From Nageia nagi (Eukaryota > Plantae > Pinophyta), in assembly GCA_050084985.1 (NCBI GenBank), contig JBITNC010000001.1:45756001-45820000 (forward strand): DNA of 64,000 nt, read 5' to 3'. Within the stretch, counting starts at the first letter, position 1; each line of letters starts with the position of its first letter. Position numbers and translations under genes: made by a program. Positions 16,301 through 49,460 of this stretch are shown one piece after another. A model generated the notes under the pieces. That model was not told where the DNA came from. It made no database searches and saw only the letters and a list, made by a program, of their open reading frames with translations.

Positions 16301-17329
16301 TTATTCATAGTTATATAATATCATTTACACTACAATTCACTTCCAACATTTTTAAAATTTAATGAAATAAAGAACCTTCAAAGTTCAGCACTGAAAAGAC
16401 AAGAAAAGACAGGTTATTGTCCATGACAGTTATAAGATATATCTTCTAATATCCCTTTAAACCCAATGGTTTGTAGGACCTATCAAAGTTTGTCCAAACA
16501 TAAATATAAATCAATTATGCATTTAAATGATTGTTTTAACAGAATCAAGATGTATAATAAAATTGTCAAGCTTGTTTTGATTATCTTGATCTAATAGCTT
16601 ATGGATCAAGTTGTAATTACAAATATCTTTATATACTTGTCTAATGTCTTTGTAAATTGAATAGACACAAAATGAGTTTTATCTTCTATGGTATTTAGGT
16701 TACAGAGCTTACAAATTCTTTTATGCAAGGTGTTTTAAGTATTGCCCATCTACCAATCTAGCTATGTAGTTCAAGTGGACAATTATTGTACCAATGCATA
16801 TGTCATTATGCACAACATACAATTAATGTATATTTAACCACATAGTGGCAGCTATGCCTTACATTGCAATAAATTATCCAACCTCTTAAACGCCCCCATT
16901 TGTACATGTGTGCTCTAATGGAGGCATGTCATGATAGCATGAGGAGGGTGTTTAATTGTCAGCAATGCATTCAATTATCATTGTCCCACAAAGAAAAAGC
17001 TAAAAACAATGAACACATGAAACATAGATCTTTGTTGCTGCACAATTCAGCTGATTGGAAAAGATAAGGTGTTGTGCCCGCACAACACACCCCAAGATGC
17101 AGCATTTGGGTACTCAATTTTTGCAACGGCAATGAGTGGCATTGCTTGGGCATGATCAACTTACGACTAGTATGGAGAATTAGGGCAGCCAGATGATCAA
17201 ACAATGCATGAGCATGCCCTGGAGTAATGAAAAGAGTTCAATGTAGCCAGTGGCCAAGTTAGGGCCTGGTTCCAAGCGATATCTCACATGATGGAGTTTT
17301 GGGTCACGACAGCGACTAGACAGTGGAGT

Positions 17330-17780
17330 TTTGAACGAATGGTCATCAAGGTGAAAAAGGCGTTGTTTTTGTAAGTTTGATCGATAAAGGTGCCAAGGCA
17401 ACCAAATGATCGTTTTTTGTCAAGTTTAAGTCCCAGTAAATACAGTCAAGATAACAAAAATGTGTGTTTTTGCACAATTTGAGCTTGGAAAAGCCAACTA
17501 TGGCAAAAATGTGCATTTTTGTCAAGTTTGAGTCTGGGAGCAGTAAATAGAGTCAAGATGATGAAAATGTGCATTTTTGCACAATTTGAGCCCGGAAAAG
17601 GCAACTATGGCCAAAAGGTGCATTTTTGTCAAGTTTTAGTTACGGAGTAGTAAATAGAGTCAAGATGATGAAAATGTGCATTTTTGCACAGTTTGAGCCT
17701 TGAAAAGGCAACTATGGCTAAAAGGTGCATTTTTCCACAATTTGAGCCCAAAATGCTCGAAAATGACCAAAAATGCAGAG
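17330..17780 (+). repeat. 107-bp tandem repeat (~3-4 copies) built of ~53-bp subunits
   Basis: GTAAATA(C/G)AGTCAAGAT at 17436, 17543 and 17650. The core AAAATGTGCATTTTTG...TTTGAG recurs twice per unit. Confidence 0.9.
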
Positions 17781-18169
17781 TTGAGCTCAAAGTGCTCGGA
17801 AATGCTTGAAAATGATCATTTTTGCACATCTTGAGTCCAAAAACTTCAGAAATGTAGACTTTGAGCTTGAAATGCCGGAAAAGATCATTTTTTCACCGTT
17901 TGAGCTTGTAAATGTTTGGAAATGGTCGAAATGCATGCTTTGAGCCCAGAGATGCACCATTTGGGCCCGTAAAAGACGGAAAAGGCCGGAAATGAACAGT
18001 ATAGCTCGGAATGGATCGGGAAAGCAAGTTTGAGTGCCCTTGGGGGTAAATAAAAAAATGAGCATTTTGGCGTTCGAGAAGCTTCAGGTTTAGCCCGTAA
18101 AAATGAGTTTTTTTTTTTTTAATGCTCGAAACAAAAATCCGAGAGGTGTGGTGCCAATGACAAATTAAG

Positions 18170-19580
18170 GCCACTTTACTCTTGGAATTGTCGAAAAAAC
18201 TCGAGTTTTGACCCCCGAAAATCTAGGGGGGAGTTTTGCAAGTTTTCCCTTCACCAAATCTCGAAAATGGCCTATTATCTTAAAAACCTGCACCTACCTT
18301 TTGGGAGGCCCAGATTGATCCGAAAGTGGAATTTTTGAGCTTGGGAGCGTGGAGATTGTGATTCTACATCAAATTGGTCTTTCAAGTTCGCAATTTCGAT
18401 GAGTTTTGCTCCACCAAAAGTGGAAAAAACAGGAAAATGAGCAAAAAGACAGCCAATAGGAATGCTCCAAATTTTCTAAAATTTCAAACATGTCAAAATG
18501 AAAATCCAAGAAAGAGGTAGGGTGCCGAATCCAATTTTAGGCATCTTCCCTCTTGAAATTTTCGAAAAAAATCAAGAAATATCCCTCAAAAAGTTAGGCG
18601 CTGGTTTTGCCTCTTTTCCCTTGCTTGGCCAAATTTCGAAAATGTCCTATTCCTCCCGAAACCTGTGCCTACGTTTCTTGCACCCTAAAATTGCAAAAAA
18701 ATGAGATTTTTGATCTCCATGGGGTGTACGATGGGATTTCACACAAGTTTGATGATTTGAATTTTCCAAAAAATATGAGATCTACTTCCTCAAATCATCA
18801 AAATTTGATCAGCCAATGAGAGAGCTCCAAAATTTTCTAAATTTTTCAAAATTGGCCAAATTAAAAAACGGGAATGAGGTAGGGTGCAAAATCCAAATGT
18901 GAGCAATATTGCCTCTTGCAATTTTGCAAAAAAATCAAATTTTGCCCCTCACAAACCTAGGCGGCAGTTTTAGGAGTTTTTTTCCCTCATTTTCCAAAAT
19001 TTCCAAACTTGCCTAAATGTCCTAAAACTTGCACCTAGCTTGGGAGTGCTCTATTTTTCTCTAAAATTGAAATTTTTCATCCTAGGAGCATGGGAAATCC
19101 AATTTTGAACAAGTTTCATGTTTTAAGTTTTTGGAAAAAAGTGGATCTACTCCCTCAAAATCACAAAATTTGGATCAGCCAATGGGAGAGCTTGAAAATT
19201 TTTCAAATTTTCCAAAATTGTCAAAATCAAAATTGAAAAGAAAGGTAGGGTGGCAAATCAAATTCTAAGCATCTTTGCCTCTTGCAAGATTGCAAAAAAC
19301 TCAAATTTTGGCTTCGAAAAAGTTAGGGGGAGTTTTGAAAGTTTTGGGCCATTTCACCAAAGTTCCAAACATGCCCAAAACCTTCAAAACCTGTGCCTAG
19401 CCTCCTTGACCCTCAAAATTACTCAAAAGGGACATTTAATGCTTCCACGTGATAGGTGGTTTGATTCTACAGCACTTTGGTCTCTCACTTGTGCAATTTG
19501 GTCGATGAAAGCTCTCAAAAACCACCTTTTTGCATTCAAGAAGTAATCAAGGGCCAAAAAACTCAAAAAATTTGGATATT
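18170..19580 (+). repeat. ~365-bp diverged tandem repeat (~4 copies)
   Basis: AAAC(C/T)TG(C/T)(A/G)CCTA at ~18285, 18659, 19026 and 19387. CAGCCAAT at ~18450, 18810 and 19176. GGTAGGGTG at ~18517, 18878 and 19244. Confidence 0.85.
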
Positions 19581-19829
19581 TTCTCAAAATTTGAAATCCA
19601 AATCTGAAGTATGAAGGTTGGAAAGCATCCAAAAGCCATCATCTTTGCTTCCAAGAGCCCCCACATTGGACCAAATCTGCTCCTTCCATACTTAGGTGCA
19701 GGTTTTGGCCTTTTCCCCTTTTTTCTCCACTTTTCCAACATTGGGCATGAGAGGGAAGAGTCCAAAAAGCAAAATTTATACTGAGGGTTGATGTGGTGTT
19801 GACATGTGGCACCTTTTCACCCCCTAAAT

Positions 19830-19839
19830 CTATAAATAC
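19830..19839 (+). promoter_or_regulatory. TATA box (CTATAAATAC) of the element-internal gene
   Basis: Consensus plant TATA box followed by a pyrimidine-rich leader. Downstream branch point CTAAC (~20665) and acceptor CAG (ends 20691) lie just before ATG 20699. Confidence 0.55.
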
Positions 19840-20698
19840 ACCCATACCACCTCTATTTTTCTTGCTACTCCCATTTTGCATTTTTATGCTGCCAAAATTT
19901 TTAAGAATTGGAGAGTTGAAGTGAAGAAGAAAGCCCATTTTCAACCTTGAAGGACAATTTGAACACTAAGCACCATTTCCATTGATCCAAACTCCATTAA
20001 ACTTGAAGATCCAAACATCCTCCATCCCACATGAACTCCATTTTTCAAGTTTTGAGGATTTTTTATACCAAAACCCCATTTTCCCAAGCCTCAAACACTT
20101 GATTTTTTTTTTTAGATTTCAAGTTTGATCACTTTTTTGGATACTCTTTATCCTTGTGATCAACTTTTATTTTCAGCAAAAAAACAAAAAAATTACATAT
20201 GATCCAAGATCTGAGTGCCTAAAATCTTCATTTCTTTACAAAAAAATAAAAAAAAAAAATCCAAATTTTTTTTCAAAAACTCCAAAAAGTGTTTTTCAAG
20301 TTCGTTTTGGCGGTTTCAAAGTTTAAAACACCTTTCCCACTCATCCCCCATCCATCTAAGGTGTTAAAACTTGATTCTAGCACCATTTGGCTAGTTTGCC
20401 AAATTTCACCCTTTTTTCCTATTGAAAAAGTCAACTTTTCAAGCTAAAAGTTGAAAATTTTCCAAAATTCCCAAAATTTTACCAAGGCATTTCCCCTTGA
20501 GTTAGTTACTTTTGTGTTATTCCAAACTGACCCAAAAGGTCTTGAACCTTGCAAATTTTGACACTTTCAATGATGGCACACTTAGAGTAAAAATTCAAAA
20601 ATCCAAAATTTTCAAAATCTCGCTTTGTCTTCCTAGAAAGTGCCACAAGCTTCCTAGGACTCTTCTAACTCTATGTTGTTCTCTTAGACAGGAACGAG

Positions 20699-23600
20699 AT
20701 GGCATTAGTCATTCAAAATATCAAAGACAAGAAGTAGAGAAGGTTCACAGTGGACAACCCGATCACGCTCGAACATACAACAGAGCTTGTAATGCCTACT
20801 ACAAGAATAATTGATCAATTGACTAAAATTGGGGACACAAACTGTAACTCCTTGGATACCATCAAAACTTTGATGAAAATACAACTGATGGATCCAGCTA
20901 AGCTAGTAAAGGACCCACTGAAAAACTCCCTACTAGTAATAGCCTCAATGGTGCCATTTGCCACCCACTTCCTTAAGCTGTGCTACGAGCTGGGAAAGCA
21001 TTGCAACACCCAAAGGCGAAGACTCTTCGATATAAAAAATGAAGTGATCATGGATTTTTCTAAGAAAGGAATAGAAAGGGCATTCGCTTGGACAAGCGAA
21101 GGTGTATCATATAGCGTGCAAGACTCCTTGAGATTCTACAAAAGTTTGAAACCTGCATATGATTTGATCAGAGATTAGTTGGCCGATGATCGCAAGCATC
21201 TCACAGGGAGAGCCTTAGCAACGCCTAACAGAAGAGAGTTCTATCATATAGTCTCCAGACTTATATCAATGCTTTCCAGAGTGACTGGACAGAAAGATGA
21301 CACCAAATTCCGGCCGGAATTCGCTGGGTTTATAGATCTCATCAATGGCGGTAAAGGCATTAGGTGGAGCAGAGTGATTAGTGATTCCTTGGCTCAACAA
21401 TTGAAAAACATTCAAAGGAGCAAGAAATTCTACATGAACTCCTACTTGGTTTACCTACTCCTTCACAGTAGGGAGAGGGTAACCTCAATTGCCAATACCA
21501 AATATTTGTGTGACCCCACACATCCAGTGTGGGAAAATTACCCCCGATTCTATGCTTTCAATAAATGGAACAATGGTAACTGGAAGATGATGATTGCCGG
21601 TTTGGAAGGCAAAATCTATGAAGAGATCATGTGCAAAGCCAATTTATGTAGAATATCCAATGAAGTTGCTACCACTATCAAAGGACATGTGGACTTCTTC
21701 ATGGAGGACATAGAATTCACCTATCTCAGGGTTTATGGCTCCAAAGAAGCCCCTTATAAGCTACCCAGTTACGCAAGTGATCGCCTCATCCTCTTAGAAT
21801 TTTCAAGACATTTGTTTAACATACATGACAAGGTATGGGTAAAAAAGGCGGCAAGCACTTACCAATTACCTATTGTCATTAGGAATTATGAATGCACCAC
21901 TTGGCTTCAGATTGATAGGATTAAACAAGAGCTAGCATTGTATTAATTCTCAACTTAGATATCTACGGATCGTTATGATCCTAATGGAGTGGTTGATGGA
22001 TTTTTCCAGAAAACATGAAGCTCATCATATCCACACCAGTCCCTTGGTAGTATTGAGAGGTACAAGAACATTCAGGACACCTTGCAAGTTCAACGGGTTT
22101 ATAAGGAGCTGAAGAAAGAACAAAAACAACGAGAAGCCGAAGAAGCTACCAGATTAAGAGCCAATGCACAGGTCACCGTACCAATAGCATCCCCGAACAA
22201 ACCATTGAAACAACTGTCACGGGTACGAAGAATGGCATCATGGACCTCAGAAGAGCAAGCTTGATCTCTCAACCATTCAAACACTTGCAGAAAAAGATAG
22301 ATCTCTGGCATGTTTGAATCAGAGTGGTATGTGCCTAAATCTAAACCCTAGTACATTATCGTCCAGTTCTGACAAGTATGAATCGAGTAGCTTGTTAGAG
22401 TCCGATGAAGAGATCGATCTTAGTGCAATCATCAACACCGACATGGAAGTGAATTGACATATTACCTTTGATAGGGTTGACACTGATCACTTAGTGGAGA
22501 TCTCTAATGAAGACAATATCGCGATTGCTTTAATTGTATAGCAAGCAGTAGGAGCAGGCAGCCCAAAATTTGCTCCTCAGAAATAGGCATCACAAATGCC
22601 ATCATCTCGGAGGACTACGACAACATCAACACAAAAGGGTACATCAAGACCTAGGACAATGGCATCATCTTTAGGGGGAGATGATGGAAATTAGGAAGAT
22701 GAAGGAGAAAACGAAGAACAGAGAAGAAAAAGGAGACAAGTAGAGCATGACATTGAAATCATCGAAGATGGAGAGATGGTTCCTTATGGAAAACAACCCA
22801 TGGAACCCCGCTTCGACATGGTTGCAGTGATGGCTAACTTAAGTTCAAATCATCGAAGATGGAGAGATGGTTCCTTATGGAAAACAACCCATGGAACCTC
22901 GCTTCGATATGGTTGCAGTGATGGCTAACTTAAGTTCAAATCATCCCTGCGAAGGAGAAGATTTCGAAGATGAAAATGAGGAACTTCAACAAATTGATAC
23001 TCTCACCACCACTGTAGGTAAAGCCACCTACAAGGACAAGCTCTACTCCAGAAAGAACAAGGCTGGTACTGGAAAGTTTGCCCTCATAGTTGAAACAAAA
23101 GAGGCCCCTACAGAGATTGTTGGCCCATTGGGAATGGAGCACAACATCATCACAAATGCATGGGCGTTGAGGGAATCCGATACCTTATTAAAGCTAGAGA
23201 TCCGAGAATTGAAGAAAAAAGTGGCTAGTTAGGAAATGATTGACAAAGAAGTCAAGGCTGCTAACTTAACAGTTGAAGACATCAAAAAGCAGGTTGACTT
23301 AAATACTGGAATCATCGCCTTGAAACAAGAATGGACCAAGGACCTTATTGAGGCTATCAAAGCACTCCACTCAAGCATGAAAAATTTTTATATTGAGGAG
23401 GAGGGGTCGCATTCTCAGGTGGAGAAAATAGACTAGTTGATCATCAGATGGAAGAATGGGTACCCCATAATGTTTGACCTACGAAGAAGGGCAACCCTTC
23501 ATCCATTCGTGCTAGATTTTTGCATAGGTTGGTTCCAATTGTATGATTATCTGTTCTACATCAAAGTCATGTCCACTGACTTCATATACACCAGGACTCA

Positions 23601-24014
23601 ACTCAAATCCGTTATCAGTGAGCAAGCAATGGAATATGAATTCCAAGTCCCTTTGTTTGAGGAGCATCAAGGAGTATATTACAGTGATGACAACAATACA
23701 TGCCACTATTGCAGAGCAGCTATGTCCCGATTCCACATAGCTTGAAAACAGGAAGACAAATGAAAGGAGGAATCAGACTTGTCGTATGATGCAAGGAAAT
23801 GGTCAAAACCAATAAGACCATCATGGAGCACCTCCTACCAAACGAAGGAGTCCTCCAGACAATCCATTAGGCCATTAGGAACATAGAAGCGTTCATGGGA
23901 GATGACTTTGAAGCTAAAATTGTGACAAATGTACAAGTCATCTTCCCACAATCGCCAGAATAGAAAGGAGTCTATTTTGGCAAATTTTTGATATGTAAGC
24001 CAAATATTGGCTAA
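20699..24014 (+). pseudogene. Decayed ~1,070-codon retroelement accessory gene of unrecognised family
   Basis: ATG 20699 is in frame with ORFs 20750, 21179 and 22082 across single TAG/TGA/TAA stops. A +1 shift near 22300 plus the 91-bp duplication give exactly the frame of ORFs 22867, 23236 and 23437. A last shift near 23790 leads to TAA at ~24014. Motifs: WSRVISDSL..QL..FYMNSYLVY, FTYLRVYG..PYKLP, RYDP.G, an acidic linker and a coiled-coil C-half. Confidence 0.8.
22756..22945. repeat. 91-bp tandem duplication with AAATCATC microhomology
   Basis: AAATCATC at 22756, 22847 and 22938. The copies differ by two C/T changes. Confidence 0.95.
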
Positions 24015-25337
24015 CTTAGTGGATTCCCACTAACTCCAATTGTAATCTCAATTAGCATTTTCAAGTAGCTCGTAAATACTTGTTAATGTTGCAATTAGGG
24101 ATTAGGTTTTTGAAACTCATTTTTAAGATTTCGAAAGTTACTTTTAGGGTTTCCAAAAGTCTATAAGTAAGAGACCAAAGGTCTCATTTTTGCAAGGACT
24201 TCATTTTGGAGCAAACACTTCAATCTTGAAGAGAGAACTTTTGAAAATTGAGAGCTTATTGTAAATCTTGGCACCTCTTTTTTCAAAGATAATAGAAAGT
24301 GGCTAATGCAAAGACTTGAGTTTGATATTTTTCATATTGGTGTTATGGATTGAATCTTTGAGGACATTCATAGTTGGTTTGTGCACTTTCGTTTTATTCC
24401 TTTGAAAGCTTTCGAGCTTTAGGGAAGTTATCACTGAAAAATTTTAAAGAGTGCTTGAAGCTTACCTATGTTGCTTGATCTTTAACATACAAGTTGATTG
24501 GGAATTCTATGTTAGTTTCTACTTTCATGACATCTTGTTAGGTCCTTCATCCAAAACTATGATCCTCTCACTTTGAGACCTTCCATTTCCATTCAATTGC
24601 ATCGATTCTATTCATAGAGCACCGACAATTGGCGTTCCTTTTCGCTTGTCTATTCGAACGCTGAGTTGTTTGCTTGCAAGGTTGGATGAATTCAATGAAA
24701 AGTCCTTAACCGATTTGGAAGAGATCAACTCTTAGACACATTCCCATCAGTGAACCTCAAACTCATATCTAACCAAGTATCTATTCTTTTCTCAAGGTGT
24801 TGCCCTTCACCTTTTACTATATTTTCTTTATGTTTTTTTATGCTTTCAAACCCAAATACAATCGTTAAGTCCACACACAGATGTTCCGAATAAACTCTAT
24901 ACATCAAAGAATAAAACAACATTGGTTAACAAACTCTTACCTCTCATTCCATTCCATTGAGGCTGATTCCAAAGAGGGATACCGCACTTTCTTTATCTAT
25001 CCCTAGACTAGGAGCATGCTTAGCGGGCATACTTTGAACTTTGTAACGTTGAGTTGCTGAGTAAGTTGTTTCGGCAAGAGCCTTGGAGGTACACAGTCCT
25101 TGTCAAACGGGAGAATTGTTAATGCATTCTCAACTATGTTGCTTGGGAGCTCCTAAATTCTGTGTATGATCTTTGGAGACATAATAGTTCAGAAAATTAC
25201 AAGATAAATTATGTGGTTACTTGTACAACATACTCTAATCAACCAATCTCATTTCATCATCTTCTTCCTTCTCGTCAGGATTTTTATCTTTCAACACCCA
25301 CAGAGCACAAGGTTGAGCAGCCCAGCCCTGCACTGCA

Positions 25338-28229
25338 ATGGATCCCTTTCAGCACCAATACGAAAGATTGCAGAAGCCAATAGATCTGGTACAAACCCTG
25401 CATGAGAAACAAGCGAAGGAAGTTCCATCGCGATATGTGCTTCCCTCTGATCAACGGCCGCAGCCTGCTCGTGAAGACACTATTCCTGTAATTGATCTTG
25501 CAGCACCGGACCAAGACCACTATCAGATTGTATTCCAATTAGCCCAAGCATCCCATGAATGGGGCTTCTTCCAGGTCAGATCAATATTAAAATCAAAGTC
25601 TGCATGTACCCAATTTGTAATGTGAGCTGTTAATTTAATGTGTTGTATTTGATTTTGCAGGTCATAAACCACGGTATACCTCTATCACTTTTAGAGAGGG
25701 TCAAAGAAGTGTCAAAGGAGTTCTGTGAACTTCCGGTAGAGGAGAAAAAAAGACAGTGCCCTGTGAGGCGTGGGACCTTCATGCTCGAAGGCTATGGCCG
25801 TTTCTTTGACCTCTCAGACGACACAATCTTGGATTGGGTTGATTGCCTTGTTCACTATGTCTCTCCACCCTCTGTGAAAAAGGTGGAACACTGGCCTAAA
25901 ACACCCACAACATACAGGTAACATTTCTATTTTTATTATAAAAATTTCATCATATAGTTGTCTAAACATGGACTGTTTCTGGACCATGAAGGGAGACCTA
26001 TGAGAAATATGCCGAAGAGCTAAAGACGCTTACTGACAAGTTGCTGGGTATGCTTTCGGAGGGTTTGGGGCTGGATGCTCATTACCTGAGAAATGTCACC
26101 AATGAGCTCATGCAACAGATTATCATAAATTACTATCCTCCTTGCCCTCAGCCAGACTTGGTGCTTGGTAGAAAACCTCATTCAGATGGGGGTATCCTCA
26201 CTGTTCTCTTTGATAACGAAGTGGATGGTCTCCATGTAAGGAAAGGCGATGAATGGTTTAAATTAGCCCGTGCCCCTGGAGCTCTTGTTATCAATATCGG
26301 TGATATGTTACAGGTATAGCCAAATTTGATCTTTTTGTAAGTACATTGGTAATTTGATCTTTTTATTAGTACTTTGGTTGTTGGTTCCTGATGATATTCT
26401 GCAACATTTATTTCTTAACATAACTGGCAGGGATCAGAATTGACCCCTTCAATGCCTTTCAAAGTAGGTTTTGTCCGTCATAGAAGTGTTTAAAAATTAT
26501 GCTTTTCAAATGAAAAATTAAATTTGAAAGTGTCTGTCAATTAACAAGGATAAATTAATTTTAAAGATTTCAATTAAACGGTGCATGTTGCGTATGCCCG
26601 CCAAGGAAACTTTAATATTTTACTTTAATAGGCAGGAGCATAATTGTAGGATGATTATAGGATGGTGACATGGTACGAAAAGGCATACACGGTCAAACAC
26701 TACTAAAATTTCTTTCAAATCAATTGTAACATGTGACAGAGTGTCATTTTAGGAAAAAGCTTAGAGAGTCGGACATCAGCAAACTTTATTTCAAACCAAC
26801 TCTACATCCTACTAGACTCGAGAGCTATCAAAAATAGAAATTTAATTTAACATGCACTACAAAATATTTATAAATCACATTATGCATCCCTCTACATAAA
26901 GGTTGAAAAAACATAAGAAGATGTAAATAAAGAAAGAAAGAGAATTTGGAGAGATTAACCAACGTAAGTGCCAAGATGTGTACAAATGATTTTGAGTTTT
27001 TAAGAAGCAGTTTCTTTCAATATTGAGTTTCGATCAAAGTTCAAAAAAATTTTCAACACAAATATTTGGTGTTTCTGGATCAATTTCAGGTATTTATTGA
27101 TCAAACTATTATCAAAGTTGTCTTAATATTTTTTTAGTTCAATTGTATTGTTGGATATACTTTACAGGTCAGATTACTAAAGGTTTCAAATTTACCTTCT
27201 GGGTAGTGGAAAATTTTTAGGTTATGTATGAAACCTGATGAAAGAACTCAAGTTCATCACTAATTTTCTGATGATCAAGCTTGTTTCTAGTTTTTAAATA
27301 ATTTCTTGCATCAGATTTACTCTTCAATAATATGATTTTATTGTAACAGCATATTTAAAGTTCAGGTTAATTGTAACAATATTTTCTCTTGAAGTTGAAT
27401 TTCTAAAATATTAAAATGAATAAAGCACAATCGTAATGCAGTTACAATTAAATTGATATATTCAATTGATGTGAGCCTGAGTTTTTCCTCCAAGAATCAC
27501 AGCTTAAGGAGACAACGGGTTTTTGTCATTAAGATTTTGAACTGTTTGCCTCCAAGAATTACAGCATGAGGAGACAATGGGTTTTTGTTATTTTGTTTTT
27601 GAACTGTATTGCAAATATTCATAGAAGCAATTCCCAGTAAATTATTTAACAAATATTGACGAATTTTGATAGAATGTGACGCTTGTTTTTCGAAAATAGA
27701 AACTCTGTATGTGAATGAGAAGTTTAGAAAACCATTTTGATTTTTGCATCTTTGTAAAAATATATTTACCTTTTTATACATAACATTGTATTTTTTCTAT
27801 TTTTTTTAGGGAAGAGTTGTATAAAGCATTTATTTTCTCGTTGATAAAGAAAAGTGCATCCAGTTTGCAATTGAAACATACAAAATTATTTTCCCTGTTG
27901 AAGAGTAGAGGGAAAAAGGAACTTCAATTGAAAAATTGATCCTTTTGTCAAATTTGATGCTATGGCAGCTAATAAGCAATGGAAAATATAAGAGCGCAGA
28001 GCACCGAGCAGTGGTGAATTCAAACCAACATCGGATGTCGCTGGCAACGTTTTTAGTTCCAGAGGCGGGTGTGATGATTGGTCCTGCTCCTGAATTGATT
28101 GACGAAGCACATCCTAAACTGTACGAATCTACATTGTCTGAAGTATATGCAACCAGGTACATGAGCAACGATTATAGTGGCAAAGTTCTAGTTCAATCTC
28201 TGCAAACAGAAACAGCACAAGGTAAATAG
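25338..28229 (+). CDS. 2-oxoglutarate/Fe(II)-dependent dioxygenase (DOXC class; JOX/SRG1/ANS-like), 4 exons, 358 aa
   Basis: Exons 25338-25574, 25661-25917, 25992-26313 and 27969-28229, all with GT-AG introns, 1077 nt open. DIOX_N motifs IPVIDL and EWGFFQVINHG; NYYPPCPQP; Fe ligands HSD and H (AEHRAVV); 2OG-binding RMS. Confidence 0.95.
27481..27607. repeat. Imperfect 62-bp tandem duplication in dioxygenase intron 3
   Basis: CCTCCAAGAAT..CAGC.T.AGGAGACAA.GGGTTTTTGT at 27487 and 27549. Confidence 0.85.
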
Positions 28230-29949
28230 TACCATTACAGAAATGGATGGGTTTGTATATAATTCATCCACTACAGTCTACAGGCTTAGAGGGACTGTCA
28301 TGTACCACAATAAGAGCAGACAAACCTGTACATGTTCTTTATTTAAGCCAATGAGACCCGATGAACCCGAGCCTAAAAGCACGGTGTTCAAGTGCGTATA
28401 TAGGTTTTGCAAAGGATAATGTAAGGCATATTTATTCATTTTGATATGTTGTAATATTATGTGATCTGACTCTTTAAATATAGAGACGGGCTGGAATATT
28501 GTCTGGTATAGGCATTTTAAATTTCTATGCATTTGTTAAAAATAATTATTTAAATACATAAATGATATATAGATATATGTATACGATTGAACAAATTTGA
28601 TAGGTCTTACAAATCAGTGAGTTTAAAGGATGTTAAAAGATAGCATTCATTATTGTTATGATTATTTTTGTATAATTCTTTTATAGGGAAATTATTACAC
28701 TCGACAAGCATCTTTGAAAATTAACCTATTGTTTTGCTGTATCCATTGAGCTTTACTAATTTAATCAATATTGAAAATAATTTATTATAGGTTCGACATT
28801 GCTACTAGTTTTTTTTTTGTTTGTGGGGTGGAAGTAAGAAAAAACTTTATATTCTCAAATTTCGGATTTCTATTAAGATCACAAGAGAAGGAAGTATAGT
28901 ACAAGGATCCCAAAATTGGATGGCATAGCATATCTAGATCTGAGTCAATTCCGTTGATATCACTAGATTGGTTCAATGGCTCCAATGTGGACAGCACTGA
29001 GTCTGGCAGGAGGTATTTGAAGCGAAAACATGGCTATGAGTAGCTCCTTCTGGTTTATAACAGAATTGCCTTCGAGCTCCTGTAGCTTATGAAGAAAGCC
29101 AACCCAATGAAGCAAGCTAATGGTGCAGCTGTCAAAAAGGAACTGATTTTGCAACCTTTGTTTACTCTTGTGAGTGTGATTCTTCTACTTCTTGTAGCCG
29201 TTTCTAGGTGGAGCATAGCATAAGAGTCAACGAACAGTAATTTGCTGGAGCTTTAAGATGGACACCGTACAGGGAACAAAATGAGCCGTCTTTACCACCC
29301 AAAATGAGTTGAGAAGAAAAATTGATATCTTATTCGCCAAGAGGATCTCAAGGCAAGGACCTGGAGTAATATGACTGAATTTGCGGTGGTGGACTGTTAC
29401 TCTGTTCCTTTTATTAGAACCATGATTGGGCTGGTCGTAGGATGGCTGAGGCTGTTGACATCTTGAGCAGAGCATATTAATGTAGTCCCAGTGATGGAAT
29501 GCTGCAATGCCGTCCTGTTGGAGGGAGGATAATGGATAACGGGCTTCCAAAATATGGGACATCTGCCTTTTGAAGCGGCCCCTAAGAATGTCTGCATCAA
29601 TTGCCTTGTTCTTGAAGATTTGGTGGTGTTTTTTATCCATATTTACCAAATTAACATGGCTGGTGCTTCATTACACATTAATTCTGAAGCTTTTGTAAGG
29701 AGGTTTGCCAGATGGAGAGCAGGTCTCCCACTGAGCTCGGTGTAACCTAGACTATTGAGAAATATGAGAGAAGCTTGCCCCACAGATAGGAAACATAGGA
29801 ACAATGAAGCAGTAGATGGGGATCAGATTCTTCCACTTCGCCACAAAGCTCACAACAGAATGGACCATTCCACCCTCTTCTCATCAGCTGATCCCCTGTA
29901 AGGAATATGTCGTGGACTTCTAGCTAGAGAAAAAAGCATGCCTTTGGTC

Positions 29950-35485: not shown

Positions 35486-35853
35486 TGTGATGATCACATA
35501 TACTAACATTTACTTATGTTAGTAATTTATTGAATTATCAACTTGTAATGTGAATTGACATAATTTTGTAAGGCATATCACCATTTTATAATGAACAACA
35601 AATCAAAGTTGAATGACTATAAATATGTGTAAGAGGGGTAGAGAGATCATCTTGGAGAAATATTTATCTTTTAAGTTGTAAGGAGGAAGCCCCCTTAAAG
35701 TGACCTATGATTCATATTGCTATTTTGTAAAGTTATCCTATTTTATTATCTTATCATTTTGAATTGCATTACTTGAATTGTATGCTCTATTGCATTACGA
35801 ACCTATTGTTATTCATGGTTTATTGCTATTTAGGTTAGAAACCCTTTTAGATC

Positions 35854-36096
35854 TGAGAGGCCAGATAACTCCAAGATCAAAAAGAATTCTATTAGTGTAG
35901 AATATTGTGTAAATACAATTTGAGAAAGACTCTTCACCTTCTTGGGTGACCTTTGAGATACATTGTAACTTCTCATATTCTACAAGAAATGACTTTCTAA
36001 ATTCTAGCACACTCAAAGCTACGAATTTACTAAATATAGTAAGTATCTAATACTATACTAACTATACCATAATCCCTAAGGATTAAGTGTCTAACA
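35854..36096 (-). repeat. Copia 3' LTR
   Basis: Direct repeat of 41818-42064; adjacent to the PPT (TTCCCCCTTT on plus). Confidence 0.95.
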
Positions 36097-36104
36097 TTCC
36101 CCCT

Positions 36105-39100
36105 TTAATCCAAAGGGGAGTTCGTAAGTCCAAGCATCTTTTTGAACTTCTCGAATTTCGCTCTTCCAAATGCCTTGGTGAAGATGTTTGTTGTTTGCTC
36201 ATCTATGGGACAATGTTTCACTTGAATTGTCTTGACCTCTACATGATGTCAATCAAATGATATTTTGTGTTGATGTGCTTTGTTCGATTATGAAATTTTG
36301 GATTCTTGGCCAATTGAATTGCAAAAATATTGTCGATTAGAAGCGGAGTTGAATTCACCTATTTTTCTTGCATATCTTTCAGTATCTTCTTGAGCCAAAA
36401 AATCTCCTTTATTGCCTCTGCAGCAGCCACATACTTTGCCTTTGTAGTGAAATCTATCAGAATGGATTGCTTTCATGATCTCCAAGAGATAGCTATTGAT
36501 CCAAGACTCATGGCATATCCTAAAGTCGAAACTCCTCTTTCTTTGTCACCATCAAAGTTTGAATCTGTATATCCAATTAATTTGAAGTCTCCTACTTTGC
36601 AATACTTGAGCCCTAATTCTTGTGTGCCTTTCAAATATCAAAGAACTCTTTTTGCTACATTCCAATGTCCTTCACACAGTTTTTGCATAAATCGAGAAAG
36701 AATTCCAACCACAATTGAAATGTCTAGTCTAGTTGTGGTTAGATATATGAGACTCCCAACAAGTTGTCTATACTTCGTTGCATCCTCAAATGCATTCCCT
36801 TCAATAGATTTCAACTTCAAATTTTGTTCCATTGGCGTAGAAAGGGGATTACAATTTTTCATGCCAAATCTGTTCAATAATTCTTCAATGTACTTTCTTT
36901 GGGAAATGAAAATGTACTTTGGGTTTTGTGTCACTTCAACACCCATAAAGTAATGAAGATGTCCCATATCTGTCATTTCAAAACCTCTCTTCAAATCTTG
37001 TTTCACGGATACAATGTAACTTTCATTATTTCTAGTTATCAAAAAGATCATCTACATACACCATAAGATATACAACCGTTTTTCCAACTTTTCTAACAAA
37101 CAAAGTTGCATCATCCAGATTAAAGTGTTCAAAGTTTATCTTCAAAAGATGCTTAGTAAGCTTTTCATACCAAGCGTGAGGAGCTTGTTTTAGGCCATAC
37201 AAGGACTTGATAAGCTTACAAACTTTCTATTCCTGATCCTTCACTACAAATCCTTCTGGTTGTTTCATGTACACATTTTCTTTGAAATCACCATTCAAGA
37301 AAGCAGTCTTCACATCCATTTGATGAACTTTCCATCCATGCTGAGCTGACATTGCCAACAAAGAACCAATAGTAGCCCATTTTGCTATGGGAGCAAATTT
37401 TTTATCATAATCAATACCTTCTTTCTATGCAAAACACTTTACTACATGCCTTGCTTTATGTTTCTCAAGTGAGCCATCTGATCTGTATTTGTTCTTGTAG
37501 ACCCACTTGCATCCAATAGGTTTGGTTCCATATGGAGGATCCACCAAATTCCATGTCCCATTCTTGATGAGAGCATCATACTTCTTCTTCATAGCATCCC
37601 TCTAGACATCATAAGAAAAAGCTTCTTTAAAGGAAGTCGGCTCACAATCAGCAGAGAAATTCAATTCACAATCAAATAAACATTCCATATCCTCAATATC
37701 ATCACCTGAATCTGAATCCTCTACTGCTCCATCTTTAATCCTATTTCTATAGGAACTCTTCATTGTCTTTCTAACTTCATCACGATGAACACTCTTAAGT
37801 GTTTTGGAAAGCCATTTAGAAATCTTTTGCAATGTTTTTGGTTTCTCAACAAGCTAGGGAGCTTCTTCATCCTCATCAAGACTCAACCTGTCGAACCTTT
37901 CAATCACATCATCCAAAGGAGCTTCTAGGATTGACGAAGAGGAAGGATTTTCCTATGGTGGAGGAGGTGCTTGTACAGCTGGAACAGGTGCAACTATTGG
38001 ATCAGACACTTTTGAAATAGACACAAGTGGTGTAGATTCCAATAATTGATCCAAAATAGGGATCCCCCCTTAACATTTGGAATCTCATAATCATATTCAA
38101 AGAAATGCTTTCCATGGGTAAACCTATCAAGGTGATCAAGCTACCGCTCAATAGTTGGGTCACTCTTGGAACATTCCAGAAAAATGACATCCCTTGCAAA
38201 GAGAAACTTTTTGTTTACCTCATCATAAAGCTTATAACCCTTGGTAGTATCTAACTATCCTAAGAAAATACATTTTTGACTCCTGGCGCCAAGTTTGTTT
38301 CTTTGTTCCTTAGGGACTAGGGCATAGCAGGTGGAACCAAAAACCTTGAAATGTTGAACTAAAGGAACATTGCCAAACCACATGTCATATGGAGTCTTAT
38401 CATAAAGAGCATGAGATGGAAATCTATTTTTAACATACACTACACAAGCAACTGCATCACCCCAAAACATCATCTTCACATTCTTGAAAAATAACATTGC
38501 CCATGTCATATTCAACAAAGTTCTGTTCATTCTTTCAGCTACACCATTTTGGTGTGGATTGTAGGGAACAATTGTTTGATGCTTGATTCCATGTTGACTA
38601 AGATAGTTCTTGAATTCAACTGAAGTGTATTCACCCCCATTATCAGAACGAAGTGTTCCAATATGAGCATTTGCTTCTTTCTCAATCATCACATGAAATT
38701 CTTTAAACTTTGCAAAATATTCAAACTTGTTCTTTAACAAATACACCCAACACATCCTAGAGTAATCATCTATGAGGGTCATGAGATATTTGTTTCTAGC
38801 AGCAGAATGGATAGGCAACGAACCACACAAATCAGATTGTATGAGTTCTAGTTTTCTACATGCTCTAAAATTTGAATCATGAAAAGGTTGTTTGCTATGC
38901 TTTCCTAGGACACATGCTTCACAAGGTTCTATGTTCCTAGGAATAGTAGGCAATCCCAAAAAACTTCTTTTTCAATAAATGGATATCATCAAAATTAAGA
39001 TGGCCAAATCTTGCATGCCACAAAAGACTATATGAGAGAGTACCTTTTTCTTGATGGGTGAGGTAGGCATAATTTTGTGATTTGGTAGAACATCCATGCA

Positions 39101-40357
39101 TCTTCAATAGCTTCTCATCCTCCCCACTAGTCATCACCACTTTGTTGTTAGAAGTCCTTATCTCCACAATGCCATTGAACATATGAATAGAGTGTCCTTG
39201 TTGTCAAATGAGCACAAGATATAGCAAGTTCCTTCATAAGTAAGGAAGATAGAGCACATTTTGAAAAACCATATCTGGAAGGCTTGGCAATTTAAGTCTC
39301 ATAGTACCAATACCGAAAAGTTTGATACAGGATTTGTCAGCAAAATATATCGCACCATCAATGTTGCTATTCATCTTTTCAAAGAATTCTCTTCAAAAGG
39401 TCATGTGACATGTAGCACCAGTATCAAGCAACCATGCATCCTCCTAAGATGCAAATGAGGTATTACATAAATTTTCAATGGTATTGTTACAATATGTAGT
39501 AACATAATGAGCGAAATTAGAGTTCTCACTCTTGTCTTGCTCTGGTTTTTCATTCCTTTCTTTGATCTTGTCCCATGGAGTGTGATAGGTATTAGCTTCA
39601 TGGCCTCGTCTATCACATCTTTTGCAATGGAGATTGTTCCTTTCATCATGATCACCTTGATTAGATCTACCTCCTACCTCTATAATTCCTCCTACCATGA
39701 CCATGGTTGTTGCTTTCACCTCGAGAAGAATCATGAATATCATTCTTTCCCTTTTGAGCAATACACAATGTATTTGAAGTAGAATCACTAGATTTCTTAC
39801 CAAAAGCCTTCTCATGTTCTGCAATCTTATCTGCCAAAGTGTCAAATGTGAGAGACTTTAGGTTACCACTAGCTTGCAAAGATTCAAGATAGTTTGAATA
39901 GGTGAGATATAATGCCTTAATCAATGCTGTGAGAGCAATATCAATCTTCACACCAGTAGAGTCAATGTCATGCATTATTTCTCTAATTTTTGAAATTAGT
40001 GCCATGGGATCATCATTATTTAACTTTAGGTTAAAGAGTTTCAATTGAAGTTGGATCAATTCTAGTTTAGAATGGGAGTCAAACAAATCTAATTTTCTTT
40101 AGTGCATTCCAAGTATCATAAATAGAGCTAATGTGGTGGTTAACATCCTCACTAACTAAAGAAGTAATCAAAGCATATGCCTTATTATTTTTCATGTTCC
40201 AAATTGCAATTTCCTTAGCATCAATCAATTTGGTAGATTTTTTATCACCATCACAAATGCCAATCCAAAAATCATTAAAAATTAATGTATGCTTTATTTT
40301 TCTAGATCAATCCGATCAATTTTCTTTTTCGATTAAAACAACACCAACAATACTCAT
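36105..40357 (-). pseudogene. Copia gag-pol (gag, zinc knuckle, protease, integrase, RT, RNase H), disrupted
   Basis: ORFs 39667-40086 (gag), 39401-39655 region, 38937-39182 (LWHARFGH), 38255-38959 (integrase LRSDNGGEY, QNGVAERMNRTL), 36638-37051 (RT, YRQLVGSLIYL) and RNase H IFTKA near 36170. Confidence 0.95.
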
Positions 40358-41269
40358 AAGGGAATGCATTTTTGAAATAGAAACTTCAAGCTTTATTTAA
40401 TTGCATTTTTCAAACTTTTACAATGCCAATAAAAGTTCACACACTTTGCCAAAAAATAACAATGTCCACACTAAATGAAGATTCTTTTTGCTTACACCAC
40501 ACCAAAAATTGCAAAAAGAATAGGAAATCTCAAAAAGGATTCATTACATCACACATCTCCTCTTACGAGAAGGATTCCTTCTAGGAGGCATGCTTATAGG
40601 AGTTGGCAAGATGGAAGTAGAGGTAGCATCAAATAGCTCAACAACAACATCTTTGTATTCATTGTCTTCAACATCAGCCAAATAACTTGTTTGCAAATCT
40701 GATTTTATTTTCTCAACATCAAGGGTAACACAAAACTCCAAGGTTCAGAATCCCTCAATTATGCCAAACTCACCAAAATTTGAGTCAAATGTTAAACCAT
40801 CTTTTCCAATATATTTTTTAATTGCTCTCCAAAATAATATCCATCCAATGACATAACTGAAAAATACTTTGAATTCTAAGTTCAACAAAAAAAATCTTAT
40901 TGAAAAAGGGGTTCGTTACACCAAGTTATGGGAAGAAATGTCTTCAAAATTTGAAAATACCCCAAAAATCAAATTAAATGTTGACTATGCATTGCTAATT
41001 GGGCTAAAAATGCTAATTGTATTGGTAAAATTGCTGATTGGGTAGGTCACACCTACATGCGACACATGGTGGATCTAAGTGTAAAGGGGAGGCATGCATT
41101 TTGAGAAGAAGGTGGCATGCATTTTGAAGGTGGCACACATTTTGCTGATAGAGATCTACAGGTGCTGATAGAGTACATTTGGAGAAGGGTGAAATCGACA
41201 TGAGGTGTAGAGAATGTAGGTTTGAAAATGCATGAGAACAAAAATCTCGAACAACATGAGAACAAATAC

Positions 41270-41515
41270 CACGTGAGGGGTGATACCATAGAACACGGAG
41301 GGAGGGGTGATACTAGAGACCATGGAGGGAGGGGTGATTTCAATACCATGGAGGGAGAGAGAAAAAATTTTAGATAGCATGAGGGGTGATACCATAGACC
41401 ATGAAGGGAGGGGTGATTTCAATACCACGAAGGGAGAGAAAAAAATCTCGGATGATGTGAGGGGTGATACCACAGATAGATATTCTGAACGGAGGGATGA
41501 TACCATAGAGGGAGC
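41270..41515. repeat. ~27-bp G-rich tandem array in the copia 5' UTR containing TGATACCA
   Basis: GAGGGGTGATACCATAGACCATGGAGG-type units; exact TGATACCA at 41281, 41387, 41465 and 41498. Confidence 0.85.
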
Positions 41516-41804
41516 TAAATAAAATTGCTGAAATAAAACCATTGAAATAAAATCACCAAAAAATAATAGTCATAGACCACTTACTTGATTGAAAACTTCA
41601 CACTGAGATAATTTTGCCAAAACTGCTCCAAATCACCTCATTCAAAAAATAATCTTGCTCTACATGAAAATGGGTATCCACATATGTGCTCAGATTTGGT
41701 TTTTGATGCTCATTTTCAGAGGAAAAATAGAAGCAAAATTTTTGGATGGATTTCGATAGCATTTTTGATCACTTTCATGGAGTTAGAGAAAGCAAAAACT
41801 CAAG

Positions 41805-41816
41805 GCTCTGATACCA
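41805..41816 (-). promoter_or_regulatory. Primer binding site, tRNA-iMet (TGGTATCAGAGC)
   Basis: Exact canonical 12-mer 1 nt from the 5' LTR. Confidence 0.95.
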
Positions 41817-41817
41817 A

Positions 41818-42064
41818 TGATAGGCGAGATAACTCCAAGATCAAAAAACATTCTATTAGTGTAGAATATTGTGTAAATACAATTTGAGAAAGACTCTTCA
41901 TCTTCACCTTCTTGGGTGACCTTTGAGATACATTGTAACTCCTCATATTCTATAAGAAATGACTCTAAATTCTAGCACACTCAAAGCTACAAATTTACTA
42001 AATATAGTAAGTATCTAATACTATACTAACTATACCATACTCCCTAAGGATTAGGTGTCTAACA
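41818..42064 (-). repeat. Copia 5' LTR
   Basis: Direct repeat of 35854-36096; adjacent to the PBS. Confidence 0.95.
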
Positions 42065-47011: not shown

Positions 47012-47392
47012 TGTTAGGATCCCATGATATCCTAACATTTACTTATGTTAGTATTTTATTTAATTATTGACTTGTACTAGTTTGTAATGTGAACCATCAT
47101 ACTTTTGTAAGAAAATATCCATTTTTTAATGAACCACCAATTAGGGTTAAATAGCATGAATATAAATATGTGTAATAGGGGTAGAGAGATCATATTTGAG
47201 AAATATTAATATTTGGAATTGTAGGGAGGAATCCCCTCAAAGCATCCTACAATTCGTATTGTTGTTCAGTAACGTTATCCTATTCTACTATCTTGTTGTT
47301 ATTCTAAATTGTATTACTTGAATTATATTCTTTGTTGCATTACAAATCCATTTTTATTATGGATTTTATTTCTATTTTGGTTAAAAATCCCT
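47012..47392 (+). repeat. Gypsy 3' LTR (3'-truncated)
   Basis: Begins TGTTAGGA after the PPT. Shares CTAACATTTACTTATGTTAGT and TATAAATATGTGTAA.AGGGGTAGAGAGATCAT with 35486-35850. Confidence 0.9.
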
Positions 47393-47394
47393 CA

Positions 47395-47674
47395 ATTAAA
47401 GGCATTTGTTGGTGTTGGTACTAAGAAGATATCTCTCTCTTGCAATCTATAGAGCTAGATATTGAGTGACTACCTCTCTGTCAACTACTAGACAGGACCT
47501 CCAATCCTTCTAATAAAGATATCAAAAAAGGATCATGAAGGAAATCTATTCAATCTATCTGAAGGCAACATGAATTAAACTAAAAAATTGATTTCACCAA
47601 AGCTCCTTGATTATCTTCATGTTTACATAAAACTAGAGAATCCTTAATTACATCAAACTACACATGTCACATGG
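47395..47674 (+). mobile_element. Second RTEX-like LINE, 3' continuation after the gypsy insertion
   Basis: Translates 'CWY..', 'RIMKEIYSIYLKAT', 'SPKLLDYLH', 'NYIKLHMSHG', colinear with 'WCWC..', 'FIRKDIYH.YIQVTW', 'NPKLVFYVEH', 'TYLQHHWSHG' of the minus-strand LINE. Confidence 0.65.
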
Positions 47675-48949
47675 TGTTTGTTTCCCCTTTTCGATATGGG
47701 TTTTCCCAAACCAGATTTGCATTAATACAAACCATCATATCCTTATAAACCAATGCATGTGTAAACTATACAACATGAAAACCTAGATTAAAGTTTAATC
47801 TTCCAAAAGGGGATGCAAGGGAGCTAGGGAGACCCCACATTTGGGGTCCCTCCCTCTAGGAAAGGCCCATGTTGCAAATGTCTAAAATATTACTTGAAAT
47901 GTGATTAAATAGTGATAATAAACAAAATGGAGAGAAGGTTTAGAGTTTTTCCTTTTCTTGTGAAATACCCACAACTCCAAATAACCTACAAATAACACAC
48001 AAGAGTAGGCTTCTAAGTTCTAGGTCCTACAACCCTAGAACCATGCAGACGTAACTAATGATCTTGTAGGCCTCCAAATGTTGAATCAACAAGGCACTAG
48101 AAAATAAGACAATTCCTAAAATGAAAATTAGCATACAATTAAAATAGATTAGCTAAAATAAAATAAAACTAAGCTATCTTAGCCTAAGTCTACAAGAGAC
48201 TAGCCTAGAAAATACTAGTATGCAACCATTCACCAAAATAATAATGATAACACAAAAGGATATATGATTGAGCTCTTGGATGTCCCCTTAAAAACCTAAA
48301 AAAATATGTAAAACAATGATTAATACCACAAAACCAATACCAAGTGTATTACCCAAGGTTTCCTTGCAATACGAGGATAAAAATCCTCCTTTTTTTTTTC
48401 TTTGAAAGTGATGGGTAAAGCTTTTAGTGGAAGATTCTTCGTCAAAAGCTTGAATGGATAGTTCTAAGTGTGTAGGATAGCAAGAAGTCATGTGTTTCAC
48501 ATTGTGCTAAGTGAGTGAGTTATTGGGAAAGCTAATTTTGATTTGAATTCTATATAGGACTAATTGATGTGTTAGGGTTTTAACCTAAGTGATCAATCGA
48601 TCTCCTAACTGATGGGCTAATTAGGGTACAAAGTGATAAGATGGTAACAAAGGGTTAAGTTACCAAAATTGATCACAAAAATGGGTTCAGAATAAGATAG
48701 AGGGATGGTGAGATCATAATGAACTACATGATTGATCAAATCATTACAAATCACATAAGATAGATGAATGAATGAGTTTTAGGTATCTACAGATGCCCCT
48801 TTTTGTGTTAGTTTTTATGAGATGTGAAATATGATATAAAAATAGGTGAAGTGTGTGCAATGTGATAATGAGAAAGAAAAATAGATAAAAAACAAAAGTA
48901 AATGATCTCTAATTTTCTCCAGCATCTAAAGGTTAAAAGAAAAGGAAAT

Positions 48950-49460
48950 CAGGATGAGAGCGAGTTTCGATGCATGATAGGTCATATAAGATCACCCTGA
49001 ATGATCGACCCAGGTCTAGTTTTGGTGCATGATAGGCCATATAATATTGAGTTGAAGAGGAGGATTGTAAAATGGAACTAAAAGGGTACAAATGGATAAA
49101 AAATAATAGTAAATTATCTTTTCTTTGCCCCAATAGCTGAATTGTAAACAAAAAATATAAAAGGTACATAAAAGTAAATGATTTCTTCTTTGCCCCAATA
49201 GTTGAAGGGTAAATGAAAGGAAAAAAGGTCAATGAGTCTACTTTGCCCCTATAGTCGAAGGGTGAACAAAAGAAAAATAATCAATGATTATGATTTGACC
49301 TAGCAGTTGAAGGGTGAAGGATAAAGCTATTAAGATGAGAGCTAGTTTTGGCACATGCTAAGCTGTATAAGATCACCTTGAACATTTGACCCAAGTTTGG
49401 TTTTAACACATGATAGGCTATATAATACTAAGCTAGAGAGAAGGATCGTAGGCTCACAAA
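48950..49460. repeat. Repeats in the Ogre/Tat 3' UTR
   Basis: TTTG(C/A)CC..TAG..GAA(GGGT) four times at 49124-49318, and a ~90-bp block TATAAGATCACC.TGAA...CATGATAGGC.ATATAATA at ~48985 and ~49366. Confidence 0.75.

What the first reader, a model, noticed from the sequence alone, without database searches (positions are those of the whole stretch)
17070..24921. Putative giant (~7.85 kb) solo LTR carrying its own complete gene inside the LTR
Seen: TGTTGT...ACAACA termini; no gag, PR, RT or INT; no internal PBS/PPT that I can find; no direct repeat between the ends. The order is 107-bp array, 365-bp array, TATA (19831), leader with intron, ~1,070-codon gene, second TATA-like motif (~24163) and a U5-like tail. 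Known: Ogre/Tat extra ORFs normally lie between the LTRs, whereas genes within U3 are known from retroviruses (MMTV sag, HIV nef overlap). Inference: a retrotransposon lineage whose LTR is itself an expression cassette, so each full element has two gene copies and each solo LTR leaves one behind. Caveat: the flanks (TAAGG vs TTGGT) are not a TSD, so a truncated element with a 3' extra ORF, or inter-element recombination, is possible.
Basis: partly seen in the sequence, partly recalled or inferred. Interest (0 to 1): 0.82.

Follow-up and report, generated by a model that had tools for sequence, protein, structure and literature searches.

The report
Giant LTR enclosing a VANC-like gene
This multi-copy plant repeat starts at 17070, runs about 300 bases past the reported end, and holds a now-broken gene predicted to fold like the transposon anti-silencing protein VANC; it is likely one giant (about 8.2 kb) retrotransposon end repeat with the gene inside it, a layout that length-capped LTR surveys would miss.

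Summary
The unit is real but mis-bounded, and its gene is dead in this copy. 17070 is a true family terminus: depth jumps from 0 to thousands, and contigs carry unrelated flanks. The repeat does not end at 24921: contigs and an 82%-identical second copy run across it. The likely end is 25230, with no target-site duplication. The gene (20699-23963) has 13 premature stops and several indels, but dN/dS is 0.20-0.26. Its N-terminal domain is predicted to match VANC21 (Z 6.4; homolog Z 8.5, next hit 2.7). Support for one giant LTR: no second start motif; a gene-less sister unit shares both end motifs about 1.65 kb apart (weak); two 98.6%-identical relatives are listed on same-length contigs. Against: no TSD, no PBS, PPT or gag-pol seen, and tail depth 1.7-2.8 times gene depth. 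No genome was held, so the paired-LTR test is undone. Verdict: giant gene-bearing LTR about 65%; new variant of a known kind; interest 0.7.

The parts
17070..25230 (+). Whole unit, 8,161 bp; likely one giant LTR (5' end shown, 3' end inferred)
17070..17107 (+). Conserved terminal motif shared with a far more abundant group of repeats; first 18 nt form a perfect 7-bp hairpin
   Evidence: depth 14,000-24,000 in X3 against about 1,300 just downstream; same start in the L001 sister unit; fold
17434..17734 (+). 107-bp tandem array (2.8 copies), decaying into 49-bp-type sub-repeats to about 17970
18146..19610 (+). 365-bp array, 4 diverged units, CCAAT box in three; candidate enhancer or binding-site array
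   Evidence: role inferred
19830..19838 (+). TATA-like motif, candidate promoter of the gene
   Evidence: sequence only
19839..20698 (+). Leader with predicted intron (donor 20361, acceptor 20687 or 20691)
   Evidence: motifs only; splicing not shown
20699..23963 (+). Decayed gene of about 1,050-1,090 codons: VANC/PMD-like domain (residues about 40-315), small alpha/beta domain, low-complexity linker, charged helical C-terminal part
   Evidence: intact relatives of 1,003-1,035 aa
24161..24169 (+). Second TATA-like motif, candidate promoter of the genomic RNA (U3/R boundary about 24190)
   Evidence: conserved in L001
24170..25230 (+). R/U5-like tail, including the motif at 25076-25100 shared with the sister unit; candidate terminus ACAACA at 25225-25230

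Best explanation
The 8.2-kb unit is likely a single, now dead LTR of a conifer Ty3/gypsy-type retrotransposon whose U3 region holds tandem arrays, a promoter and a roughly 1,050-codon gene, whose product is predicted to be a VANC/PMD-fold DNA-binding protein that would act on the element's own arrays. Shown: multi-copy family; exact 5' terminus; gene fused to the R/U5-like tail in two copies; purifying selection on the gene in the lineage; this copy broken. Inferred: the genomic RNA would start near 24190 in the 5' LTR, run through PBS, gag-pol and PPT, then through the 7.1-kb U3 of the 3' LTR. The gene would thus be present once in the RNA, downstream of the PPT, and be duplicated by reverse transcription. 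Its own mRNA would start after the TATA at 19830 and end at the LTR poly(A) site. Recombination between LTRs would leave gene, promoter and arrays together; the missing TSD suggests recombination between LTRs of two different insertions, or a flank deletion. Least certain: by analogy with VANC21, the protein would bind short motifs in the arrays and keep the LTR promoter unsilenced, in cis and in trans.
For: True terminus with unrelated flanks at 17070. No second start motif: no direct repeat, and the 38-bp peak that lifts the first bin to 2,648 in X3 has no counterpart at 23853-24209 (1,131). Gene and tail collinear in L001, 82% over 22849-25160. Every bin from 17070 to 25280 is covered in 4 of 4 runs, with diverged contigs over 17069-17218, 17245-17475 and 17314-17509. 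A gene-less sister unit inserted into L001's gene begins with the same 9 letters exactly at the break; its first 60 nt score best at 17070 (40; mean 16.3, sd 2.8, 2,550 tiles) and its last 87 nt best at 25076-25100 (33; mean 17.4, sd 2.8, next place 31): 1.65 kb apart there, 8.0 kb here. dN/dS 0.26, 0.20, 0.22 in frame against 0.68-1.06 in the other frames. Two full-length 1,003-aa relatives, 989/1003 identical, mutual best hits with 9 private shared residues, are both listed on a 55,660-bp contig; a second overlapping pair (87/99) on a 22,983-bp contig. Fold: VANC21 is the top hit of 48,161 chains for both models: Z 6.4, rmsd 4.8, 232 aligned (next 3.2); Z 8.5, rmsd 4.6, 239 aligned (next 2.7). 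Atlas neighbours of homolog P0037 include DUF1985 (0.85) and PMD (0.84) clusters, lead level only. Named relatives are Taxus chinensis hypothetical proteins.
Against: No TSD. No PBS, PPT or gag-pol was seen attached to any copy; the loose ends at 17070 show no purine consensus. The 3' end was not resolved to the base. Tail depth is 1.7-2.8 times gene depth in the four runs (my averages), as a shorter LTR would give, though the tool says depth is no copy number. L001 has a 9-nt purine run 4 nt before a TGTTGG just after the stop codon. Sister similarity is weak: each local score was reached by the best of 200 shuffles, the TATA/R probe ranks second behind 44551, and a two-copy profile missed the sister. 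No contig spans the unit. The two-per-contig pairs are 2 of 76 contig lengths among 80 proteins, are distant relatives (about 24% identity), assume equal length means same contig, and could be tandem duplicates. Foldseek, Pfam and PDB sequence search give no VANC/PMD hit; identity in the structural match is 6-7%. No DNA binding, expression or demethylation data.
Confidence: 0.65

Rival explanations
1. Chimera: the 5' start of one family's ordinary LTR is joined, by recombination, deletion or nesting, to the 3' part of another element (arrays, sense 3' extra ORF, PPT, 1.2-kb LTR). The gene is then an ordinary internal extra ORF, once per element.
For: No TSD. Tail depth 1.7-2.8 times gene depth; the first 38 bp are about 20 times deeper than what follows. 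Purine run and TGTTGG after the stop in L001. Sense 3' extra ORFs occur in 26% of 27 gymnosperm TatII elements (PMC6317226 Additional file 5).
Against: Diverged contigs in several runs join the terminus to the sequence leading into the 107-bp array. The tail shares a motif with a sister unit that begins with the 17070-type start. The window lacks the TG at the L001 position. None of the 15 joints shown (of 122) skips the cassette. Paired near-identical genes in relatives.
Confidence: 0.22
2. A non-autonomous DNA transposon of VANDAL (Mutator-like) type, carrying a VANC-like gene and its target arrays and moved by a transposase in trans.
For: VANC21-like predicted fold; tandem arrays beside the gene as in VANDAL21 (PMC5735166 abstract and section 9); dispersed copies with a sharp terminus.
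Against: TG...CA ends with a 6-bp inverted match; no transposase; flanks share no 4-6-bp repeat at 25230 and no 9-bp repeat by eye; the sister unit has an LTR-like size and layout; VANC is described as dicot-specific (PMC13547354 passage).
Confidence: 0.06
3. The giant-LTR layout is right but the protein is not an anti-silencer: it is a PMD-type chromatin, integration-targeting or particle factor and the arrays are plain enhancers. This rival concerns function only and shares the best explanation's architecture.
For: PMD shares the fold and occurs in 57% of Ogre elements with no shown function (PMC6317226 passage; 10.1101/2024.09.27.615353 passages). CCAAT boxes in the 365-bp units. Structural identity only 6-7%.
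Against: Gene and fast-evolving arrays sit together as in VANDALs; host PMD proteins also counteract Polycomb silencing at DNA motifs (same preprint; title, abstract start and passages).
Confidence: 0.3

Closest known systems
OTA Ty3/gypsy elements with extra ORFs (TatII/TatIII of gymnosperms, Ogre, Athila, Retand)
   Same: Large LTRs, tandem arrays, a conserved accessory ORF; PMD in Ogre extra ORFs (PMC6317226 passages and Additional file 5; PMC7264820 part 1 of 3; PMC11963269 abstract).
   Different: Described extra ORFs lie in the internal region and LTRs reach about 5 kb; here the gene appears to be inside an 8.2-kb LTR. Lineage cannot be assigned without RT/INT/aRH/PBS.
VANC21 / DUF1985 of VANDAL21 (PDB 9LNK) and the related PMD fold (MAIN/MAIL1, PMD-A of retrotransposons)
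   Same: Predicted fold match over the whole domain; charged helical C-terminal part; neighbouring tandem arrays.
   Different: No sequence or Pfam similarity; conifer rather than dicot relatives; LTR-type rather than Mutator context; activity untested.
Retroviral U3 genes (MMTV sag, lentiviral nef overlap; recalled, from no call)
   Same: A gene downstream of the PPT is copied into both LTRs and stays in solo LTRs.
   Different: Those LTRs are about 0.6-1.3 kb (recalled); here about 8.2 kb, with a second TATA-like promoter and a gene of over 1,000 codons.

Membership tests
Solo LTR of an LTR retrotransposon | TG start that is a family boundary with unrelated flanks | tested here: met
Solo LTR of an LTR retrotransposon | CA end that is a family boundary | tested here: inconclusive
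   24921 refuted; end bounded 25160 to about 25280, ACAACA at 25230
Solo LTR of an LTR retrotransposon | 4-5-bp target-site duplication | tested here: not met
   2 of 5 at 25230; no CA end from 25100 to 25280 exceeds 3 of 5. Not filed as a classical solo LTR.
Solo LTR of an LTR retrotransposon | Same sequence found twice around gag-pol, with PBS and PPT | not testable with these tools
   no genome; only indirect paired genes in distant relatives
Solo LTR of an LTR retrotransposon | U3-TATA-R-U5 order shared with a normal-sized LTR | tested here: inconclusive
   three sister probes collinear, two rank first and one second; profile search negative
Ty3/gypsy OTA (TatII/TatIII) | RT/RH/INT phylogeny, aRH position, PBS type | not testable with these tools
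   no pol or PBS in the unit
Ty3/gypsy OTA (TatII/TatIII) | Gymnosperm host range and extra ORF | tested here: inconclusive
   named homologs are Taxus chinensis proteins; host of the window itself not named; extra ORF present
VANC / DUF1985 / PMD proteins | Pfam PF09331 or PF10536 at cut-off | tested here: not met
   0 of 111 alignment members;
VANC / DUF1985 / PMD proteins | Same domain fold as VANC21 | tested here: met
   predicted models: Z 6.4 (rmsd 4.8, 232 aligned) and Z 8.5 (rmsd 4.6, 239 aligned), next rows 3.2 and 2.7; Foldseek did not find it
VANC / DUF1985 / PMD proteins | Sequence-specific DNA binding and anti-silencing | not testable with these tools
   needs binding and methylome experiments
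VANDAL (Mutator-like) DNA transposon | MuDR transposase gene and about 9-bp TSD (TSD length recalled) | tested here: not met
   no transposase hit; flanks differ

The most novel reading that the evidence does not exclude
A widespread conifer retrotransposon group has moved a VANC-type anti-silencing gene, its promoter and its target arrays into an 8-kb LTR. Every full element then carries two copies, and every solo LTR, normally the host's way of deleting an element, leaves behind a self-activating cassette that keeps the family unsilenced in trans. This would be a sequence-specific anti-silencing system in an LTR retrotransposon, hidden from surveys that cap LTR length at 6 kb.
Probability: 0.3. 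Interest if true: 0.9.

Novelty: new variant of a known kind. Interest (0 to 1): 0.7.

Why it matters
It would require plus-strand synthesis across 8 kb before strand transfer. It gives a testable function for one of the unexplained extra ORFs of gymnosperm retrotransposons, and bears on why these elements persist in giant genomes. This copy also sits 108 bp upstream of a 2-oxoglutarate dioxygenase start codon.

Tried and rejected
No whole genome is held. Protein search for longer relatives of P0001: none (weak evidence). Pfam on the gene pieces and homologs: nothing relevant; three long hits (P0055, P0077, P0087) are bacterial repeat proteins and were dropped, and 110 of the 146 hits went into alignment A1. 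Foldseek pdb and viral: no E below 0.001. PDB sequence search: nothing. Atlas with P0024: no usable hit. Viral contigs: no relative; L002 is a chance 17-bp match in 62% GC DNA. Genome contigs: none. No RNA holder listed; run X1 is only guessed to be RNA. Rfam and tRNA scans: none. Earlier scan findings: none. A stop shared with L001 at 21176 is not a family trait: P0158 (88% identical) has Trp there. Two further same-contig protein pairs do not overlap and are pieces of one gene. The Tat-like element at 47-58 kb has different ends and no copy of the gene. Literature searches listed no title or abstract start describing a plant LTR with a gene inside; most subscription papers are not held, the 9LNK paper was not held, and Additional file 1 of PMC6317226 (per-element data) was too large to read and may bear on LTR lengths.

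Full report
What is there. Window 17070 onward reads: terminal motif, 107-bp array (17434-17734), four 365-bp units with CCAAT boxes, TATA-like motif at 19830, leader, gene 20699-23963, second TATA-like motif at 24161, tail. There is no direct repeat between the ends, no gag/pol domain, no tRNA or Rfam match. No whole genome is held, so other copies were studied through contigs of public runs and one metagenome contig.

Boundaries. Laid at 80% likeness, 4 of 4 runs give depth 0 up to 17049 and thousands at 17070 in three of them (20 in X1). Contigs that continue left of 17070 disagree with each other (agreement 0.41-0.62 in 16, 11, 8 and 2 contigs). 17070 is therefore a true terminus of a dispersed family, not a truncation point. 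No purine-tract consensus is visible among those flanks. The first 38 bp are about 20 times deeper than what follows, so related families share them. ACAACA occurs 7 times in the unit; the one at 25230 is the only 6-bp inverted match in the allowed interval. I take 25230 as the end (inferred), giving 8,161 bp. No TSD exists there (2 of 5).

The gene. It is a pseudogene here: longest open stretch 255 codons, 13 premature stops in the frames matching L001, and indels near 22180, 22312, 22753-22934, 23660 and 23731. It was selected in the lineage: dN/dS 0.26 over 422 codons, 0.20 over 238 and 0.22 over 74, against 0.68-1.06 in the other frames. The N-terminal 427 residues, read with X at stops, hit 146 cluster representatives at E below 0.001 (three are unrelated repeat proteins). 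Cluster look-ups gave intact relatives of 1,003-1,035 aa (E about 1e-16), and the only named relatives are Taxus chinensis hypothetical proteins, so a conifer family is likely. Pfam is blank for 111 of 111 alignment members as regards known transposon domains.

Fold. The window's domain gave a model with pLDDT 82, pTM 0.77; homolog P0024 gave 92 and 0.90. Against 48,161 solved chains both rank VANC21 bound to DNA first: Z 6.4, rmsd 4.8, 232 aligned, next 3.2; Z 8.5, rmsd 4.6, 239 aligned, next 2.7. The two models share much of their alignment, so they are not independent. Foldseek and sequence searches did not find it. Atlas neighbours of P0037 include DUF1985 and PMD clusters at 0.85 and 0.84, lead level; P0024 gave none. 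Published passages state that VANC and the MAIN/PMD domain are structural homologs (PMC13547354; 10.1101/2024.09.27.615353) and that VANC targets form fast-evolving tandem repeats (PMC5735166 abstract and section 9). A shared fold shows no function.

Is the gene inside the LTR? For: the tail must begin somewhere, and the family's start motif occurs only at 17070. Gene and tail are fused the same way in two copies. L001's gene is interrupted by a reversed, gene-less unit that starts with the same 9 letters exactly at the break; its first 60 nt match best at 17070 and its last 87 nt best at 25076-25100 out of 2,550 tiles, 1.65 kb apart in the sister and 8.0 kb here. In distant relatives, two full-length genes 989/1003 identical, closer to each other than to any other member, are listed on a 55,660-bp contig, and a second overlapping pair on a 22,983-bp contig (2 of 76 contig lengths, 80 proteins): what an LTR pair would give. 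Against: no TSD; no PBS, PPT or pol seen; tail depth 1.7-2.8 times gene depth; a purine run before TGTTGG after the stop in L001; sister similarity no higher than the best of 200 shuffles in unanchored tests, second rank for the TATA/R probe, and missed by a profile; no contig spans the unit; the paired genes' DNA was not seen. I put the giant-LTR layout at about 65% and a chimera with an ordinary 3' extra ORF at about 22%.

Likely mechanism (inferred). Genomic RNA starts near 24190 in the 5' LTR and carries the gene once, in the U3 of the 3' LTR behind the PPT; reverse transcription copies it into both LTRs. The gene has its own promoter at 19830 and would use the LTR poly(A) site. LTR-LTR recombination leaves the whole cassette; recombination between different insertions explains the missing TSD. 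The protein most likely binds motifs in the adjacent arrays and opposes silencing, as VANC does; given the layout I rate that about even against other PMD-type roles.

Comparison and novelty. Extra ORFs, PMD domains, tandem arrays and LTRs up to about 5 kb are known in OTA elements, with the ORFs in the internal region (PMC6317226 passages, section 18 and Additional file 5; PMC7264820 part 1 of 3; PMC11963269 abstract; PMC3485330 abstract and passages). Genes in U3 are known from retroviruses (recalled). Searches listed no title or abstract start reporting a gene inside a plant LTR; coverage is limited to open papers, and one large supplement could not be read. Passages of PMC11539532, PMC13477047 and 10.64898/2026.08.24.746577 added only that TatII/TatIII are gymnosperm-specific. 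REXdb capped LTRs at 6,000 bp, so this layout would have been missed. It fails the TSD test, so I do not file it as a classical solo LTR, and it fails the Pfam test, so I call the protein VANC/PMD-like, not a member. Verdict: new variant of a known kind; interest 0.7.

Noticed in passing
window 25338-28230 (+): 2OG-Fe(II) dioxygenase gene whose ATG lies 108 bp after the unit's likely 3' end; an I-box-like motif abuts the unit's 5' end at 17063-17069, so the insertion may have split this gene's promoter.
   Followed up: partly
L001 1-1687 (-): Gene-less sister unit with the same terminal motif, inserted into the second copy's gene; has its own short tandem repeats at 1155-1415.
   Followed up: yes
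window 35846-42064 (-): Ty1/copia element with a 249-bp LTR pair (93%), initiator-Met-type PBS (motif recalled), integrase and RT hits, lying inside a 76%-identical 350-bp direct pair at 35498-35844 / 47027-47390.
   Followed up: partly
window about 47400-58500 (-): Heavily decayed Tat-like Ty3/gypsy element (RVT_3 and integrase hits; purine tract then TG near 48795), with ends unlike the unit's.
   Followed up: partly
window 59870-60250 (+): Chlorophyll a/b-binding protein gene fragment.
   Followed up: no
window 17070-17087: The first 18 nt form a perfect 7-bp hairpin and themselves read TG...CA; meaning unknown.
   Followed up: no
L001 5914-6688: The second copy breaks off at window-equivalent 25160 into unrelated sequence, so it does not show the 3' terminus.
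   Followed up: no
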